From positions 4,279 to 68,278 of IMG/VR virus record IMGVR_UViG_3300033181_000072: a stretch of DNA of 64,000 nt; one strand, given 5' to 3'. The notes beneath the pieces are model-generated. The model was not told the DNA's origin. It saw only the letters and a list, made by a program, of their open reading frames with translations, and searched no databases. The stretch comes from a virus. Shown here piece after piece: positions 2,796 through 52,104 of the stretch (positions are counted from its first letter, which is position 1; every line of letters starts with the position of its first letter). A program made the translations under genes and the position numbers.

Positions 2796-4405
2796 ATCCG
2801 CTGCGCTGGTTGATTGTATGTGGATTGCCGCTCACGTGGGCGACGTGCTGGTGGATCGCGGTTCCCCACGGCAACATTGTGGGGAGCTTGCCCGCGCGGG
2901 ACATCATGGGCTGGTACCTCATCGTCGGCATCATCCTGTTCATCAAGGCACCGGCTGGACCGGCTCGGCAGGATGCCACGCTGAAGGGTTCGGCGTCCTG
3001 GGCCACGAAGGGCGACCTGGCCGACGTACTGGTACCGGCGCGGGTGTTCGACCGGATCGGTGCTCTGGAGCCGGGCGCGTTCCTCGTCGGGGCGTGGGGC
3101 AAGGGCGCACTGGTGATCCCCCGTAGCCAGGCCACGGACCACGTGCTGCTCGTCGGGCCTCCAGGCACCGGCAAGACGCGCAGCCTGTTCATGCCCAACG
3201 CCGCACTCGGTCAGGGGTCCTTGGTCACGACCGACCCGAAGGGTGAGTTGTGGGAGTACACCAGCGGCTACCATCATCGCGCCGTACGTTATGCCCCGGG
3301 TGAACCCGACAACAGTGCGTGCTTGAACTGGATACCGCTGTGTGCCGATCCCAGGCGCTGTGACCTGCTCGCCGCCGCCGTCATGCAGGCGGGCCAGGGC
3401 GGCCGCCACGATGTGTTTTGGGAGCAGGCAGAGACACAGGTCGTGTCGGCGCTGTTTGCGTACACCGCGACGCTGAGTGTGCCGACACCGGCCACCGCGT
3501 ACAACCTGCTGGTGGAGGGCGCACCGGCGCTCATGAAGCGCTTCGAGGGCAGTGCCCTGCCGGGCCCGCGGATGGTCGCCAACAACTACACTGGCGATGC
3601 CCGGACGCTCGGCAATATCATGTCGGGGGTCGCCAATAAGCTGGGATGGCTGAAAGACGAGGGCGTGCGCCGTTTCACGTCGTCGAGTCTGGAACCGCCC
3701 GATTTCTCCCGGTTGAAGCACGAGTCCATTGCCGTGTACTGGGTGTTGCACGAGCAGGACACGGCGCGATTGCAGCCGCTCTCCAGCCTGTTCTTTACAC
3801 TGTTGCTGGATGAACTGACGACACAGGCGGGGCCCGTGCCGGTGACGTTGTTGCTCGACGAGTTGGCGAATCTGGGAGTGTTGCCGCATTTCCCCACCAC
3901 CATGACGATTGCCCGTGGCCGCGGTCTCAGTCTCGTGCTCGGATTGCAGTCGCTCAGTCAGTTGGAAGAGCGGTATGGGCACGCGGGTGCGCTCACCATC
4001 CAGAACTCATGTGCCACGAAGCTCTTCCTGCACGGCCTCGACTTTCAGTCAGCGCGGCAGGCATCTGACCTCCTGGGAGATGCCACCATCGCGTACCAGC
4101 GCACGAGCCGGAACGCCCACGGCACGACCACGAGTGATGATCAGGTCTCCCGGCGCCTCATGACACCTGATGAAGTGCGACGTCTGCCGGAGCACCAGCT
4201 GCTAATGGTGTGCAGTAACCGCCGTCCGGCCGCCGTGGTCAAACGTCCTTGGACCGTTGCGCCGTGCCCTGCTCCGGTGCGAGAGGCGTTGGGGCAGCCC
4301 CTGGCGTGGGAGCCTGTCCCGCCTGTGCATCCTGATCGTCCCACGCCGCCCAAGGCGCCGCCTCGGTGGTCGGGTCGGGTGGAGGGAGCGTTGCCGCGAG
4401 GGTGA
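2792..4405 (+). CDS. virD4: Type IV coupling protein VirD4/TraG
   Basis: Two N-terminal TM segments, Walker A GPPGTGKT, TDPKGEL, Walker B LLLDELANLG, QSLSQLEERYG. Confidence 0.92.
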   Translation: MNPLRWLIVCGLPLTWATCWWIAVPHGNIVGSLPARDIMGWYLIVGIILFIKAPAGPARQDATLKGSASWATKGDLADVLVPARVFDRIGALEPGAFLVGAWGKGALVIPRSQATDHVLLVGPPGTGKTRSLFMPNAALGQGSLVTTDPKGELWEYTSGYHHRAVRYAPGEPDNSACLNWIPLCADPRRCDLLAAAVMQAGQGGRHDVFWEQAETQVVSALFAYTATLSVPTPATAYNLLVEGAPALMKRFEGSALPGPRMVANNYTGDARTLGNIMSGVANKLGWLKDEGVRRFTSSSLEPPDFSRLKHESIAVYWVLHEQDTARLQPLSSLFFTLLLDELTTQAGPVPVTLLLDELANLGVLPHFPTTMTIARGRGLSLVLGLQSLSQLEERYGHAGALTIQNSCATKLFLHGLDFQSARQASDLLGDATIAYQRTSRNAHGTTTSDDQVSRRLMTPDEVRRLPEHQLLMVCSNRRPAAVVKRPWTVAPCPAPVREALGQPLAWEPVPPVHPDRPTPPKAPPRWSGRVEGALPRG

Positions 4406-45297: not shown

Positions 45298-45530
45298 TCC
45301 CTTACCGCCTCCTCCACGTGCACCTGTGCCACGGCTAACGCTCCCATCGCCTCGTCACTGTCGCCCCAGTCATCGGGCAAGCCCAGTGCGCGGGTCAGTT
45401 GTTGCCGCGCATGCCAAAGCTGTGCCGTCCATTCCTGTCCAGGATAAACAGCACGATGGCTGAAATTAACCCGCTCCAACGCATACACCTGTGCCGCCGA
45501 AAACACGGCCACGCGCTCGTCGTGTGTCAC
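45294..45530 (-). CDS. Small hypothetical protein, paralog of 43676-43921
   Basis: GTG start overlapping ASCH stop; paralog motif. Confidence 0.6.
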   Translation of the reverse strand: MTHDERVAVFSAAQVYALERVNFSHRAVYPGQEWTAQLWHARQQLTRALGLPDDWGDSDEAMGALAVAQVHVEEAVRE

Positions 45531-46003
45531 AGCAACCTCCCTTGCCCCGCGTTCACCGTCATCAGTGCCGCTTCCGGCTCCCACTCCCACAATCCTAAAC
45601 TGCCCCTTGCTGGTACAGGTTCGTCGAACCGTGTGGCGTTCCGCAACAACCACATCCAGCGGCCCGGTGAATAGTCCCCCAGCGCCAACTCTTGCTCAGA
45701 CAGTAAGCTCCCACCGAACAGTTGCGGGCGCCCGAGTCGCACCGTCGTCAGGTAGTCCACCAGCTCTACCGTGCCGAGCACCACGCCTCGTGGGAGGTCG
45801 TGTGGCATGGCGATTCCGATGCTGGCGAGCAACGTGCGGTGTGGCTCCTCGTAGCACAACTCCACAGCCGCCGCAGGCATACCCTTGCTGGCGTGAATGG
45901 CCAGCAGACCGGTGTAGCGGTGTCGCCAGCTGCGCGTCTCAATCTGCTTCATGCCATGGACGACGTACGACGCCCAGGGCTGGGAAAGCGACAATGCCCT
46001 CAT
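45527..46003 (-). CDS. ASCH domain protein
   Basis: MRALSLSQPWAS...GMKQIETRSW, GVVLGTVEL and PVPARGSLGLW. Confidence 0.9.
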   Translation of the reverse strand: MRALSLSQPWASYVVHGMKQIETRSWRHRYTGLLAIHASKGMPAAAVELCYEEPHRTLLASIGIAMPHDLPRGVVLGTVELVDYLTTVRLGRPQLFGGSLLSEQELALGDYSPGRWMWLLRNATRFDEPVPARGSLGLWEWEPEAALMTVNAGQGRLL

Positions 46004-46122
46004 GGCTGCACTGCTTTGTTGGCCAAGGCAAGCAGGATGTCACCATGGCAGTCCTCGTCTGGCCGTCGTTTGGCGGTCTGCAAGCTGGTGTAGCCCTTGC
46101 ACCAACATGCCCAAGGTTTCAT
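46000..46122 (-). pseudogene. Orphaned original C-terminus of the DUF4326 gene (40-aa mini-ORF)
   Basis: MKPWACWCKGYTSLQTAKRRPDEDCHGDILLALAN duplicates CWCKGYTS...CHGDVL of 46772-47107. Confidence 0.75.
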
Positions 46123-46775
46123 CGCTGCGTCGCTATTGCATTGGTGGCCATCGTGTCTCTTCGTGCGCGTAGTCTAATTGCCGCACCCGACGATTCTCTT
46201 GCCTGGCGCTGTGCCAGCCTTTTATGGCAACGCCGACACAGCGTGCCATTGACTCCGAACCGCTCCCCGGAAATCCGGACTGGCGACCCAGTCGGGACAT
46301 CCCTGCGGCCATCAGGATCACCGCACACGACGCACGGTGGCCAGGACTTTTTACGGCGGGCTTCGGTCATTCGTGTGACACTGCCGTGTATCCGATCTGG
46401 TCCCTGCGCAGCGTCAAATCGGTAGTGTTCCCGGTGCGTATGAAAGAGCACGAGGTTGGAAAGGTAACTGTGCGTCCGGACTCCATCTCGGTGCCCAATC
46501 TCCTTACCCCGAATCGCCTCTATTCCCCAGACCTTGATCGCGACCAATCGGTGAGTGCGGACCGGGCGTTGCACATCACGACTGTAGGCCAGGTAGACGA
46601 CCGGATAGCCGGTATTCCCAGGTGATCCCTTGAGCCCCCTGCCCCGACGAAGGTTCGTCACGACACCGGTCTCCACGTCCACGTCGTAGTGTCCGTGGTC
46701 CAACATCCAACGGCCATACTCGTCCAGAGTCAGTCGCTGCATGGCTTCCTCATCTGTTCGGAGTGTCATCATCAT
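46119..46775 (-). CDS. HNH homing endonuclease
   Basis: GYPVVYL, RTHRLVA, EIGHRDGVRTHSYLSNL; C-terminal CxxC...CxxC. Confidence 0.8.
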   Translation of the reverse strand: MMMTLRTDEEAMQRLTLDEYGRWMLDHGHYDVDVETGVVTNLRRGRGLKGSPGNTGYPVVYLAYSRDVQRPVRTHRLVAIKVWGIEAIRGKEIGHRDGVRTHSYLSNLVLFHTHREHYRFDAAQGPDRIHGSVTRMTEARRKKSWPPCVVCGDPDGRRDVPTGSPVRISGERFGVNGTLCRRCHKRLAQRQARESSGAAIRLRARRDTMATNAIATQR

Positions 46776-47107
46776 GATCGTTCCTTTCGATTCAACAGAT
46801 CCGACAAGACATCACCGTGGCACGGCTTCCCTTCCCGGCACTTGCCAGTGCGCCGCGAGGTGTAACCCTTACACCAGCAGCAAATGTGTTTTCCGAGCAA
46901 CGGCGCTAACCAGTCGGGCTCGCGCTCTAATCGTTGGACCGCGTAGATCCTGAAGTCGTCGAGCGACAGCCGCGGGTTCTTCCACGGCGTGTCGGGGTAG
47001 GTGACTGGATTGCCGTCAACAAACTGCCGGAACGCCCGGCCGATGTAGACGGCGTCCGGGGGGCGGAGAGAATCATTGACGTGCCAGACGCGTGGACCAT
47101 CGCTCAT
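46772..47107 (-). CDS. DUF4326-family protein
   Basis: VYIGR, WKNP, LLGKHICCWC and PCHGDVL motifs. Confidence 0.8.
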   Translation of the reverse strand: MSDGPRVWHVNDSLRPPDAVYIGRAFRQFVDGNPVTYPDTPWKNPRLSLDDFRIYAVQRLEREPDWLAPLLGKHICCWCKGYTSRRTGKCREGKPCHGDVLSDLLNRKERS

Positions 47108-47147
47108 GACGTCACCCGCCGTGCATGCATCATCGTGGTACCGTCGA

Positions 47148-47720
47148 TTAGTAAGTGGTGTCATCATCGTCTTCGACGTCCAGACCATCCTCGATCTTGG
47201 CATCGTCGAGATCTGACAGTTCGTCGGCAATGCGCACAGTCGGCACAGTCGGCAGTTCCCAGCGGTGTACCGGTTCAGGTTTATTCCCTCGTGCGACGGC
47301 CCGGGCTGCTGCCTCGGACACGGGGGTCAGTCCATACACGCTGGTTGGCGCGTAATACTGCGTGGCTACCCACGCGATGTCGGCTCCGTCAAGGGTCGTT
47401 CCCCGGTAGCGTGGCACGGCATAGCGCAGCCAGCACACCCGTACAAACGGGAGGGAGGCGGGCACAACCCGGAGCAGACGGGGGTCTGTCGTGCAGCCGA
47501 TCTGGACAATGAGCCGTCCATCCGGGCCGACGAGTCGGGGGAAGTGCTGAGCCACATCGTGAAACAGCGCGACAGGATCATCGGTCCACTCGGCCGTCGG
47601 AGTTGCACCCGGCCAGGGCGGATCGGTCACCATCGCGTCGGCGTGGTCGATATGCGGCAGGAGCTCGCGACTATCGCCCCAGTATAGAGTGACGGTATCG
47701 GACTGGTAGTAGGGCCTCAC
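47148..47720 (-). pseudogene. Truncated N6A/N4C DNA methyltransferase fused to an unrelated phage-protein C-terminus
   Basis: LYWGDSRELL and VTDPPW (motif IV) present; SAM-binding FxGxG motif absent; C-terminal half unrelated. Confidence 0.6.
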
Positions 47721-47953
47721 CGCATCGCCTCCTCGAACAATGCCCGCTGCCGTGCTCTCTGCACACCGGCCGTTGCTGCCCCCACGTCAATTTGACCAGG
47801 CCGCACGAGATCCGGCGCAGGTGGCTGGTGCGCTCGCCAGTTGTCCCACGTGCGACAGGCGTCGTTGATGCAGAGCGCGATAAACTGCTCCTTGCTCTGG
47901 CCAGGATGCGGCTGGCGTTGTGCCGGTACATCAGCGATCCAGAGCGTGGTCAT
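47717..47953 (-). CDS. Small hypothetical protein
   Basis: 4-nt overlaps on both sides. Confidence 0.45.
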   Translation of the reverse strand: MTTLWIADVPAQRQPHPGQSKEQFIALCINDACRTWDNWRAHQPPAPDLVRPGQIDVGAATAGVQRARQRALFEEAMR

Positions 47954-50415: not shown

Positions 50416-51287
50416 TCGGTGCCGTTGCCGTCGGGGAATTGGTCCCACGTGCGGCCGTCGAGCAGCCGATCTTGACCGGACCGGAACGCATTGCCCTGCT
50501 TGTGGAAGTAGGCGACTCCCTTGTCCTGGCACTGGTCGCGGATGTCGCGAAACCAGTCAGGATCAGCCGGGCGCCGACGTGGCCCGGACTCACCACCGGT
50601 GATGACCCAATCGATACCGGTCAGGTTCATGTTCACCAGTGGTCCGAGGAGCGGTTCACACGACAAAAAGCGCACGGCTGCGGGGATCGTCCGCAGCACA
50701 TCGATCCGTGAGGTGTACGCCTGGCTCTCCACGCTGGTGCCGATCCAGATGTTGGGGCGCGGCCACAGCCACCAGAGCGACACGTCTGGCGTGGGCCGAG
50801 AGAAGCGCCGCAGGTGTTGATCCTGGGGATGGCGCTCAGCCAGGCCCTCCATAGCACCGTAGACACCGTGCGGCGTACAGGTCGTGAGGAAGTCTGCCAG
50901 CCGCTGTGGGCGCTTCGTCAGCACCTGAAACGTGTGACTGGGGCACATGGCCATCACCCCGAAGATCTGCCGCAATTGCGCGTCGGTGACCTGCTCATGG
51001 GCGATATCGGTCATGGAGCAGACGAAGATCTTCCGCGCTCCACCCCAGTGCAACGGTTTGAGCAGTGCCTTGTCGTCTAGCCGCAGCGTGTCGACCCCCA
51101 CCACGTAGCGTGGTCCCCCATAGCGGACGTTGAGCGCCTCGGCATAACATGAGGCGCATCCCGGACTGATACGGGTACATGTCCAGTTACCGACCGTGCC
51201 CCGGAGCGGGTTCCACGTTGCACCTGGTGTCGTTGTGCCATCGGGATGATGCGTGTGTGTCCACTCAATCGACGTCTTCTCAGCCAC
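50412..51287 (-). CDS. Phage Gp37/Gp68 (DUF5131) radical-SAM-like protein
   Basis: TSIEWT, CTRISPGCASCYA, FVCSMTD, LTKRP, FLSCEPLLG and WVITGGESG. Confidence 0.9.
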   Translation of the reverse strand: MAEKTSIEWTHTHHPDGTTTPGATWNPLRGTVGNWTCTRISPGCASCYAEALNVRYGGPRYVVGVDTLRLDDKALLKPLHWGGARKIFVCSMTDIAHEQVTDAQLRQIFGVMAMCPSHTFQVLTKRPQRLADFLTTCTPHGVYGAMEGLAERHPQDQHLRRFSRPTPDVSLWWLWPRPNIWIGTSVESQAYTSRIDVLRTIPAAVRFLSCEPLLGPLVNMNLTGIDWVITGGESGPRRRPADPDWFRDIRDQCQDKGVAYFHKQGNAFRSGQDRLLDGRTWDQFPDGNGTE

Positions 51288-52104
51288 CGCCCCACCCCCA
51301 GCGGAGGACGGTGTATGCGGGGTAGCGCACTCCCCAGTCCCACGCCTGATCGCACCTTGGTACCCAGAGATCCAGGGTATAGGGCGCACTCCCCCGATCT
51401 TCGACAATCACGTCGCCCCATCCTTCGACACGAACAATGGAACCGAGCGGCAGCCACCACGCGCCACCGGCAGCCCCGAGATGTGTCCAATTGCCATCGG
51501 CCATATACCCGTGATCGCAAAACGCGGTAATTCTCCCGTCATCTGCCAGTGCTGGCCTCGCGGTCGGGAGAAGCAGTGCGAGTGCTGCCAGTATCGCGAC
51601 AGCCACGTGTTTCCAATGGGTGCGGTTACTTATCATCGCCACCGCAGATCGGCTTACGCCATACGATGCCGCGATGTCTTTCTGCCGCTCCCCGGCTTCG
51701 AGTCTGACAAGGATGTCCCGAACGTTGTCTTCGGTGAGCCTTGCCCCGGGCAAGGCGGACCCGCGCGGCATCCTTCCCTTTTGGACCTTGTCCAAGGCAT
51801 TGTCGGTTCGTGTCCCGAGAAATAGGTGCTCGACATTGATGCACCGTGGGTTGTCGCAACGATGGAGGATGCAGCCACCGGGAGGAATCTCGCCGTTCAC
51901 CTGTTGCCAAGCCACCCGATGGGCATACGACAACTTGTGACGAATGTTGATGACCCCGTACCCGTTTTCGTTGACGTACCCCGTCCATTCGATGCATCCG
52001 GACGGTACAGCCGTACCCTGAGCGGCTATGCGTTCCCGGATCTCATGCGGCGTGGCCGGTGGTTGTTTTACGTATTGACCATACTCATCTCGTATTAGCT
52101 GCAT
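51280..52104 (-). CDS. HNH endonuclease fused in-frame to a signal peptide and 3D (MltA-like) domain
   Basis: GCIEWTG, AHRVAW, HRCDNPRCINVEHL; then VAILAALALLLP..ALA/DD; GSIVRVEGWG...VEDRG...LDLW (3D). Confidence 0.8.
   Translation of the reverse strand: MQLIRDEYGQYVKQPPATPHEIRERIAAQGTAVPSGCIEWTGYVNENGYGVINIRHKLSYAHRVAWQQVNGEIPPGGCILHRCDNPRCINVEHLFLGTRTDNALDKVQKGRMPRGSALPGARLTEDNVRDILVRLEAGERQKDIAASYGVSRSAVAMISNRTHWKHVAVAILAALALLLPTARPALADDGRITAFCDHGYMADGNWTHLGAAGGAWWLPLGSIVRVEGWGDVIVEDRGSAPYTLDLWVPRCDQAWDWGVRYPAYTVLRWGWGGG

What the first reader, a model, noticed from the sequence alone, without database searches (positions are those of the whole stretch)
46000..47107. HNH inserted in the DUF4326 gene with a recoded replacement C-terminus; the old C-terminus survives as a coupled mini-ORF
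Seen: DUF4326 ends ...GKHICCWCKGYTSRRTGKCREGKPCHGDVLSDLLN. After the HNH gene lies MKPWACWCKGYTSLQTAKRRPDEDCHGDILLALANKAVQP (46122-46000): the same motif with synonymous changes (TGG TGT AAG GGT TAC ACC vs TGG TGC AAG GGC TAC ACC). Its ATG overlaps the HNH stop and its stop overlaps the ASCH start. Inference: the mobile unit is [new gene end + HNH], which repairs the target gene without splicing, makes the site cleavage-resistant and keeps translational coupling intact.
Basis: partly seen in the sequence, partly recalled or inferred. Interest (0 to 1): 0.7.

Follow-up and report, generated by a model that had tools for sequence, protein, structure and literature searches.

The report
Phage homing nuclease carrying spare gene-end
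A selfish nuclease gene sits inside a small phage gene, brought a working replacement for the part it displaced, and left the gene's original tail behind as a tiny reading frame; this insertion style is known from fungal mitochondria and recurs here across a family of phage nucleases.

Summary
On the minus strand a complete DUF4326 gene (47107-46772), an I-HmuI-like HNH gene (46775-46119), a 40-codon mini-ORF (46122-46000) and an ASCH gene (46003-45527) are linked by three ATGA overlaps. The mini-ORF is a second, diverged copy of the DUF4326 C-terminus.

Two HNH-free alleles (L003, L004) have DUF4326 directly coupled to ASCH. Their gene end is the orphan type: 92% nucleotide identity to L004, against 60-67% for the end now in use.

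Relatives of this HNH show the same design:
- L019/L020 (sister HNH) and L008, in DUF4326 at the same CWC codons.
- L007, in a metallopeptidase gene.
- L017, as a mirror image at an ASCH 5' end.
- L013 and L016, where the HNH sits in frame at the same DUF4326 site without duplication.

Best reading: a free-standing homing endonuclease inserted by one-sided double-strand-break repair. The imported tract may be the whole DUF4326 gene, not only its end. Cleavage resistance and translation of the relic are untested.

The closest known kind is the mobile-ORF gene hybrid of fungal mitochondria. This scan has noted similar HNH end-duplications on other DNA before.

The parts
46772..47107 (-). Complete DUF4326 gene (111 aa) now in use. 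It belongs to a different lineage from the HNH-free alleles along its whole length.
   Evidence: Pfam PF14216 E 3e-6, profile positions 4-81 of 82. It is 82-86% (N-part) and 60-67% (C-part) identical to L003/L004.
46772..46891 (-). Replacement C-end (about codons 73-111). It holds the CWC...CHGD motif and, in its last codons, an AAGGA Shine-Dalgarno (46786-46782) 6 nt before the HNH start.
   Evidence: GC3 is 0.625, like the HNH (0.626) and unlike the N-part (0.79); this is weak evidence from only 40 codons.
46119..46775 (-). Free-standing HNH homing endonuclease gene (218 aa), I-HmuI-like, with a C-terminal four-Cys zinc ribbon. Its start overlaps the DUF4326 stop (ATGA).
   Evidence: Pfam HNH_3 is weak (E 0.0018, below cut-off). 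AF2 model pLDDT is 88.5. The top Foldseek hit is I-HmuI 1u3e, E 1.5e-5, prob 1.00. Family-invariant residues H75 R76 H95 C148 C151 C180 C183 and near-invariant N107 H117 D121 are present. The gene is absent from L003/L004.
46000..46122 (-). Orphan mini-ORF (40 codons), the native DUF4326 C-end. Homology to the empty alleles starts sharply at 46107. Its ATG overlaps the HNH stop and its stop overlaps the ASCH start.
   Evidence: It was not called as a gene in L005/L006.
46859..46879 (-). Upstream copy of the 21-nt direct repeat (codons for the CWC motif and the four residues after it).
   Evidence: 18 of 21 identical to 46087-46107, all differences synonymous.
46087..46107 (-). Downstream copy of the direct repeat. 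It marks the right junction of the inserted DNA and the inferred position of the break.
   Evidence: Junctions in L019, L008, L013 and L016 fall within about 3 codons of the same motif.
45527..46003 (-). ASCH gene. It is the native downstream neighbour of DUF4326 and is joined to it by ATGA in the empty alleles.
   Evidence: 96-97% identical to L003/L004. Pfam ASCH at cut-off. Gene tables.
47148..47720 (-). 190-aa gene (DPPW motif, no Pfam hit) upstream of DUF4326. L003 carries an unrelated 115-aa gene at this position. This is the possible left part of the imported block.
   Evidence: blastn finds no homology between L003 2414-2790 and window 47735-47090. No Pfam hit.

Best explanation
The HNH gene is a free-standing, I-HmuI-like homing endonuclease whose target is the DUF4326 gene, at or next to the codons of its invariant CWC motif.

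**Inferred origin**
1. A phage with the native arrangement DUF4326-ATGA-ASCH was cut there.
2. The left end of the break was repaired by copying from a related donor phage that carried its own DUF4326 allele followed by the HNH gene.
3. The right end had no homologous partner beyond the HNH. It was joined back illegitimately, as in 'one-sided' double-strand-break repair.

**Shown result**
- The donor's DUF4326, or at least its end, now serves as the working gene. The HNH follows it with its own ribosome-binding site embedded in the new gene end.
- The recipient's last 36 codons are stranded behind the HNH. No intron or intein is involved.

**Inferred consequences**
- The relic stays open, starts on the HNH stop and ends on the ASCH start. 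Ribosomes leaving the HNH can therefore be passed on to ASCH, which has no good ribosome-binding site of its own.
- The relic also gives the cassette a right-hand homology arm. Against empty alleles, the unit that moves is then exactly [new gene end + HNH] between two direct repeats.
For: **The nuclease**
- The family has 196 relatives with conserved catalytic and zinc residues.
- The confident model's best structural match is I-HmuI.

**Presence/absence and which end is native**
- L003 and L004 have DUF4326 directly overlapping ASCH.
- blastn places L003 2790-3071 on window 47090-46809 and L003 3001-4582 on window 46107-44526. About 70 nt therefore match twice, and the right junction is sharp at 46107.
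- The orphan is 91.8% identical to the L004 end. The end in use is 60-67% identical. ASCH is 96% identical.

**Recurrence**
- The sister HNH P0007 (54% identity, tree support 99/96) in L019/L020 follows a DUF4326 gene. It is itself followed by a 27-codon orphan whose ATG overlaps the HNH stop and whose stop overlaps the next gene's GTG.
- In L008 the HNH reads in frame into an orphan copy of the DUF4326 end (score 102 versus at most 44 in shuffles).
- L007 shows the same design in a PhageMetallopep gene.
- L017 is the mirror image at an ASCH 5' end.
- L013 and P0045/L016 carry the HNH in frame between CWC and CHGD.

**Exclusions and precedents**
- No Rfam intron and no promoter or terminator lie in the region.
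- One-sided illegitimate break repair is documented in T4 (PMC2988022).
- C-terminal duplication by mobile endonuclease ORFs is documented in fungal mitochondria, with near-identical identity figures: native 91-98%, inserted 64-81% (PMC3630166).
Against: - No cleavage, homing or expression data exist. The lineage is thinly sampled: only two empty alleles, and no donor-like genome.
- The direction of the event (gain or loss of the cassette) cannot be read from structure alone.
- The left boundary of the imported DNA is unresolved. It lies anywhere from about 46893 to 47735.
- About half of the gene junctions in this genome are 4-nt overlaps. The ATGA at the relic's start is therefore less special than it looks.
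- The HNH_3 Pfam hit is below its gathering score.
Confidence: 0.8

Rival explanations
1. The direction is reversed. The duplicated arrangement is older, and the 'empty' alleles L003/L004 arose by recombination between the two direct repeats. That event would excise [new end + HNH] precisely.
For: The 21-nt near-identical repeats make such a deletion easy. The deletion product would look exactly like L003/L004.
Against: This only moves the origin of the duplication back in time. An HNH-linked insertion still has to be assumed. L003 and L004 carry two different C-end types (75% identical), which fits old independent alleles better than two recent excisions.
Confidence: 0.1
2. This is ordinary phage mosaicism. 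An illegitimate recombination between two phages happened to fall inside DUF4326, and the HNH is a passive passenger that did not cause the event.
For: These phages are mosaic around this locus. The upstream gene is replaced, and L003 and L004 are themselves mosaic within DUF4326.
Against: Related HNH genes are found at or within about 3 codons of the same CWC motif in five independent DUF4326 lineages: window, L019, L008, L013 and L016. End duplications flank family members in two other genes as well. Chance recombination does not predict this.
Confidence: 0.06
3. An ancestral tandem pair of DUF4326 paralogues existed. The HNH then replaced the first two thirds of the second copy.
For: It would also leave a 3' fragment behind the HNH.
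Against: No relative has two DUF4326 genes. The orphan is nearly identical to the single-copy gene end of L004 and continuous with it into ASCH.
Confidence: 0.03

Closest known systems
Mobile-ORF (mORF) gene hybrids of fungal mitochondria: Allomyces macrogynus atp6 (Paquin et al. 1994, as cited in PMC3630166) and Glomus sp. atp6, atp9, cox2, nad3 (Beaudet et al. 2013, PMC3630166)
   Same: An endonuclease ORF is inserted near the 3' end of a gene together with a foreign in-frame C-terminus. The native C-terminus is left downstream and stays much closer to the relatives' gene: native 91-98% versus inserted 64-81% there, 92% versus 60-67% here.
   Different: This case is in a phage, not an organelle. 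The nuclease is an I-HmuI-like HNH, whereas I recall the mitochondrial mORFs as LAGLIDADG/GIY-YIG enzymes; the passages I read say only 'endonuclease'. The relic is kept as a start/stop-overlapping mini-ORF in a translationally coupled operon. The same nuclease family also occurs fused to the relic, or fully in frame at the same site.
Free-standing homing endonucleases of T4-type phages (SegF, SegG, MobE; 'intronless homing') and one-sided illegitimate double-strand-break repair (Parker, Belisle and Belfort 1999, via PMC2988022)
   Same: A nuclease gene without an intron or intein sits next to its target gene. It spreads by break repair with co-conversion of flanking DNA. One-sided homology gives illegitimate junctions.
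   Different: Those elements usually sit between genes and leave no duplicated gene end. The review does not use the word 'duplicat' at all.
I-HmuI (Bacillus phage SPO1, PDB 1u3e)
   Same: It is the best and only significant structural match to the model: E 1.5e-5, 120 columns, 27% identity. It shares the HNH_3-type catalytic core with an N-terminal DNA-binding sheet.
   Different: I-HmuI is encoded in a group I intron; this gene is not. The C-terminal part here is a four-Cys zinc ribbon conserved across the family.
Genes-in-pieces: mobE in nrdA of Aeromonas phage Aeh1 (Friedrich et al. 2007, via PMC2988022, PMC8351571)
   Same: An HNH homing endonuclease gene is inserted inside a phage coding sequence without a splicing element.
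   Different: There the gene is split into two polypeptides that reassemble. Here the gene is made whole by a spare end, and the old end is redundant.
ShiLan-type insertion with a hidden HNH in an actinophage methylase (PMC11855218)
   Same: An HNH element lies inside a phage ORF without an intron or intein, and the host frame stays open. It resembles the in-frame relatives L013 and L016.
   Different: There the HNH is read in another frame than the host gene, and no gene-end duplication is described.

Membership tests
HNH homing endonuclease (I-HmuI-like, Pfam HNH_3) | HNH catalytic core (beta-beta-alpha-metal fold with conserved His/Asn/His) | tested here: met
   Pfam HNH_3 alone is only E 0.0018, below its cut-off. 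The AF2 model (pLDDT 88.5) matches I-HmuI 1u3e at E 1.5e-5, prob 1.00. H95, N107 and H117 are invariant or nearly so in 30 relatives.
HNH homing endonuclease (I-HmuI-like, Pfam HNH_3) | Presence/absence polymorphism at one site in otherwise homologous genomes | tested here: met
   L003 and L004 lack the gene, while the flanks are 82-97% identical.
HNH homing endonuclease (I-HmuI-like, Pfam HNH_3) | Site-specific cutting of the allele that lacks the gene, and immunity of the allele that has it | not testable with these tools
   There is only an indirect hint. Junctions in five DUF4326 lineages cluster within about 3 codons of the CWC motif. The window allele has four non-synonymous codons just 5' of the motif.
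mORF-type gene hybrid (endonuclease plus carried C-terminus) | The inserted C-terminus is in frame with the resident gene and followed by the endonuclease ORF | tested here: met
   a complete DUF4326 domain, with the HNH start overlapping its stop.
mORF-type gene hybrid (endonuclease plus carried C-terminus) | The native C-terminus is retained downstream and is closer to relatives' genes than the inserted one | tested here: met
   92% versus 60% identity to L004.
mORF-type gene hybrid (endonuclease plus carried C-terminus) | Mitochondrial genome; LAGLIDADG or GIY-YIG endonuclease (nuclease families recalled, not read in the cited passages) | tested here: not met
   This is a virus record with an HNH nuclease. 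It works like a mORF hybrid but is not a member of that set.
Group I/II intron or intein | A ribozyme structure, or a protein-splicing (Hint) domain, flanking the endonuclease | tested here: not met
   No Rfam intron at E up to 1 in 45400-47800. Stop codons separate the ORFs, and there is no Hint-domain hit.
DUF4326 (PF14216; rhodanese-phosphatase clade according to PMC9503650) | A match to the Pfam model above its gathering score over the whole domain | tested here: met
   28.2 bits against a cut-off of 25, profile positions 4-81 of 82. The family assignment and proposed ADP-ribose-phosphate role come from the literature only.

The most novel reading that the evidence does not exclude
This HNH lineage is a phage homing-endonuclease family that routinely invades coding sequences without any splicing element and heals them with a spare gene end.
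- The stranded native end is kept under selection for two reasons. It acts as a translational relay to the downstream gene, and it is the right-hand homology arm for further homing.
- The three forms seen at the one DUF4326 site would be stages of one pathway: separate mini-ORF (window, L019), relic fused to the HNH (L008), and HNH fully in frame with no duplicate (L013, L016).
- That pathway would turn a selfish nuclease into an internal domain of its host protein.
Probability: 0.3. Interest if true: 0.75.

Novelty: new variant of a known kind. Interest (0 to 1): 0.6.

Why it matters
- **A third way into coding sequence.** Homing endonucleases are thought to enter coding sequences only when protected by an intron or intein, or else to sit between genes. 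Here a phage HNH family does it by bringing a spare copy of the gene end. Until now this route has been documented mainly in fungal mitochondria.
- **A testable target.** The junctions point to a precise, conserved target, the CWC codons of DUF4326. Target recognition, immunity and one-sided repair therefore become directly testable with a small enzyme.
- **Annotation.** Short unannotated ORFs behind nuclease genes can be relics of the neighbouring gene. 'Fusion' proteins such as DUF4326::HNH can be insertion products.
- **Gene expression.** The relay arrangement, if real, shows how a selfish insertion avoids polar effects in a translationally coupled operon.

Tried and rejected
**Searches that found nothing useful**
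- Nucleotide searches of the phage collection, near and distant modes, found nothing. The protein mode gave only remote DUF4326 hits.
- Single-protein scans of IMG/VR with DUF4326 and with the HNH found no relative.
- The 30-sequence HNH alignment was too diverse for a scan. The 10-sequence alignment gave 4 metagenome loci, 2 viral loci and 1 partial genome locus.
- A conserved ASCH 5' pattern was not found in IMG/VR.
- ASCH homologues closer than 53% are limited to the L003 cluster, so no further alleles of this locus exist in the databases.
Filled and empty alleles could not be counted in reads.
The repeat was defined by alignment instead.
- No promoter, convincing terminator or Rfam family lies in 45400-47900.

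**Ideas considered and dropped**
1. *A sharp left breakpoint at about codon 70.* The drop in identity there is matched by the L003-versus-L004 comparison, so the C-part is simply fast-evolving.
2. *Deliberate synonymous recoding of the CWC-motif codons.* There are 2 differences to L004 in 21 nt, against 4 between L003 and L004.
3. *The second HNH of this genome (51280-52104) belongs to the same family.* It is not found by the family profile.
4. *Assembly chimera.* The locus is identical in three records, and L019/L020/L021 come from three runs.

Full report
**What is in the window**

The window comes from a 70-kb IMG/VR virus record with about 61% G+C. Four minus-strand ORFs follow each other, each joined to the next by a 4-nt ATGA overlap:
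- DUF4326, 47107-46772, 111 aa.
- HNH, 46775-46119, 218 aa.
- A 40-codon ORF, 46122-46000.
- ASCH, 46003-45527.

Pfam confirms DUF4326 above its cut-off. ASCH scores at its cut-off. HNH_3 is only weak.

The 40-codon ORF aligns without gaps with the last 36 codons of DUF4326, with the two stops in the same column. It is the only second hit when the genome is searched with the DUF4326 protein (E 1.4e-9). It scores 108, against at most 60 in codon shuffles. The same 20 kb is identical in two other assemblies.

A protein search found two close DUF4326 relatives at 77-78% identity. On their contigs, L003 and L004, DUF4326 is joined directly to ASCH by the same ATGA overlap, with no HNH.

The C-terminus of these alleles is the orphan type. 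The L004 protein end is almost letter for letter the mini-ORF. Nucleotide identities are as follows:

| Window segment | vs L004 | vs L003 |
|---|---|---|
| Orphan | 91.8% (100% over the last ~70 nt) | 72.7% |
| C-end in use | 60.2% | 67.2% |
| DUF4326 N-part | 81.8% | 86.1% |
| ASCH | 96.0% | 96.6% |

blastn shows each empty allele matching the window twice over 68-71 nt. The second match starts sharply at 46107 and runs on through ASCH and beyond. So the stranded piece is the native end, and the end in use is foreign.

**How much was imported**

The data do not support a breakpoint there.
- The C-part of DUF4326 evolves fast in general: L003 versus L004 is 75%, against 90% for the N-part.
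- The window allele is about 1.3 times as divergent from L003 as L004 is, in both parts alike.
- L003 and L004 are 100% identical in codons 31-60, where the window is 83-96%.
- The gene upstream of DUF4326 is unrelated between the window and L003.

The imported block may therefore be the whole DUF4326 gene, perhaps with the 190-aa gene before it, plus the HNH.

One weak counter-hint exists. GC3 of the new end (0.625) matches the HNH (0.626), not the N-part (0.79), but this rests on only 40 codons. The left edge stays open. The right edge is exact.

**The nuclease**

An exhaustive search found 196 relatives, about 40 of them full length. The catalytic His/Asn/His positions and four Cys of a C-terminal zinc ribbon are conserved, and all are present in the window protein.

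The AF2 model is confident (pLDDT 88.5). Its only significant structural match is the homing endonuclease I-HmuI (E 1.5e-5).

No intron model, promoter or convincing terminator lies in the region. The gene is therefore a free-standing homing endonuclease gene read within the operon. An AAGGA ribosome-binding site sits inside the last codons of the new DUF4326 end.

**The same design elsewhere**

I looked at the genomic context of thirteen family members.

| Locus (HNH) | Context |
|---|---|
| L019/L020 (P0007, sister, 54% identity, support 99/96) | Follows a DUF4326 gene. A 27-codon orphan copy of that gene's end follows it; the orphan ATG overlaps the HNH stop and its stop overlaps the next gene's GTG |
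| L008 (P0010) | The HNH ORF runs in frame into an orphan copy of the preceding DUF4326 end (score 102 vs at most 44) |
| L007 (P0006) | Same three-part design in a PhageMetallopep gene, again with overlapping start and stop |
| L017 (P0013) | Mirror image: an ASCH N-terminal fragment is fused to the HNH, and a full ASCH follows |
| L013; L016 (P0045) | The HNH lies in frame between the CWC and CHGD motifs of DUF4326, with no duplicate |
| L018 (P0014) | In frame in a PolX-like gene |
| P0008 contigs | A convergent DUF4326 gene overlaps the HNH 3' end; no DNA could be read |
| L014, L022-L024, L026 | No duplication |
| L009 | Cut at the 5' end, so not informative |

In all five DUF4326 cases the junction lies within about three codons of the CWC motif. 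This motif is invariant in the small DUF4326 alignment.

In each genome the new end resembles its own orphan, with the same loop length, more than it resembles the new end of the other genome. The duplications were therefore probably made separately, by transfer between close relatives.

**Mechanism**

Shown:
- A presence/absence polymorphism.
- A foreign working gene end.
- A native stranded end.
- A sharp right junction.
- Recurrence with related nucleases at one site.

Inferred:
- The nuclease cuts empty DUF4326 alleles at the CWC codons.
- The left end is repaired from a donor allele, and the right end is joined without homology. This is the outcome described for one-sided break repair in T4 (PMC2988022).
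- Once formed, the arrangement offers homology on both sides of the break. The unit that then moves into empty alleles is exactly [new end + HNH].
- Immunity of the filled allele is untested. The motif codons differ only synonymously and at background level, but four codons just upstream are changed non-synonymously.
- Translational relay through the relic is plausible. ASCH has no good ribosome-binding site and is ATGA-coupled in the empty alleles. The start-on-stop and stop-on-start pattern recurs in three mini-ORF cases. However, about half of all gene junctions in this genome overlap in this way, and there are no expression data.

**Comparison with what is known**

The closest known kind is the mobile-ORF gene hybrid of fungal mitochondria (Allomyces atp6; Glomus atp6, atp9, cox2, nad3). 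There an endonuclease ORF carries a foreign C-terminus, and the native one stays behind. The identity figures are almost the same as here (PMC3630166).

This case differs in several ways:
- It is in a phage.
- It uses an HNH enzyme.
- It keeps the relic as a coupled mini-ORF.
- It belongs to a family that also shows fused and fully in-frame forms at the same site.

I found no description of such end duplications in the phage homing literature I could search. That search is not exhaustive.

DUF4326 itself is proposed to be a rhodanese-phosphatase-type enzyme acting on ADP-ribose derivatives (PMC9503650).

**Earlier notes of this scan**

These are unchecked AI notes. They report:
- A second HNH with a duplicated signal peptide in this same genome (e1-5327630). 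I confirmed that the ORF exists and that it is not a member of this HNH family.
- Similar HNH end-duplications on other DNA (e1-350922, e1-2445415, e1-4845674).

The kind has thus been seen before in this scan. What this report adds is the successful empty-allele test and the family-wide picture.

**Verdict**

- Observation: confirmed.
- Interpretation: right in its core, with the unit's left edge, immunity and coupling still open.
- Novelty: a new variant of a known kind.
- Interest: 0.6.

Noticed in passing
L019:157-1475 (also L020, L021): The sister HNH (P0007, 54% identity) sits behind a 138-aa DUF4326 gene (157-573). It is followed by a 27-codon orphan copy of that gene's end (1392-1475). 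The orphan ATG overlaps the HNH stop, and its stop overlaps the next gene's GTG at 1472.
   Followed up: yes
L008:1-1609: A 316-aa protein with a C-terminal DUF4326 domain (1-951) is followed by an HNH (929-1609). The HNH's own C-terminus reads in frame into an orphan copy of the DUF4326 end (about 1475-1550). After the LAD residues the orphan seems frameshifted relative to the native tail.
   Followed up: partly
L007:2-1230: An HNH homologue (52% identity, 419-1165) lies behind a PhageMetallopep gene. A 21-codon orphan copy of that gene's end follows (1165-1230; TGATG overlap with the HNH stop, ATGA overlap with the next gene).
   Followed up: yes
L013:3-857 and L016:1874-2704: Each is a single open frame in which the HNH domain is inserted between the CWC and CHGD motifs of DUF4326, with no duplication. 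An internal Met lies where free-standing family members start, so separate translation of the nuclease is possible.
   Followed up: partly
L017:3001-4192: This is a mirror-image case. The first ~38 codons of an ASCH gene are fused to the HNH N-terminus (GTG start at 3001). A full ASCH follows with ATC where its start codon should be (3698). The nearest in-frame ATG is at 3656, inside the HNH 3' end, and the gene caller missed this ASCH.
   Followed up: partly
L018:3001-4416: A 471-aa ORF combines a PolX-like (DNA pol beta palm/thumb) N-part, the HNH and a 45-aa tail. This is an in-frame insertion of the same HNH family into a third kind of gene.
   Followed up: no
window 51280-52104 (-): A second HNH_3 gene (274 aa) in this genome is fused to a signal-peptide-like segment and a 3D-type domain. 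It is not detected by the profile of the HNH family studied here.
   Followed up: partly
window 47148-47720 (-) versus L003:2435-2782: The gene just upstream of DUF4326 differs completely between the window (190 aa, DPPW motif, no Pfam hit) and L003 (115 aa). Both flanks are about 90% identical. This is a mosaic boundary next to the nuclease target.
   Followed up: partly
window 46772-47107 (-), alignment A1: The columns invariant across the five-sequence DUF4326 alignment, apart from the start Met, are C-W-C and C-H-G-D, separated by a loop of very variable length (4 to 16 residues). This loop is where the HNH family inserts. The four residues may be a metal site or the active site.
   Followed up: no
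P0008 contigs (no DNA available): An HNH family member (47% identity) lies convergent to a DUF4326 gene, and the two 3' ends overlap by about 50 nt. This is a further, different association with the same target family.
   Followed up: no
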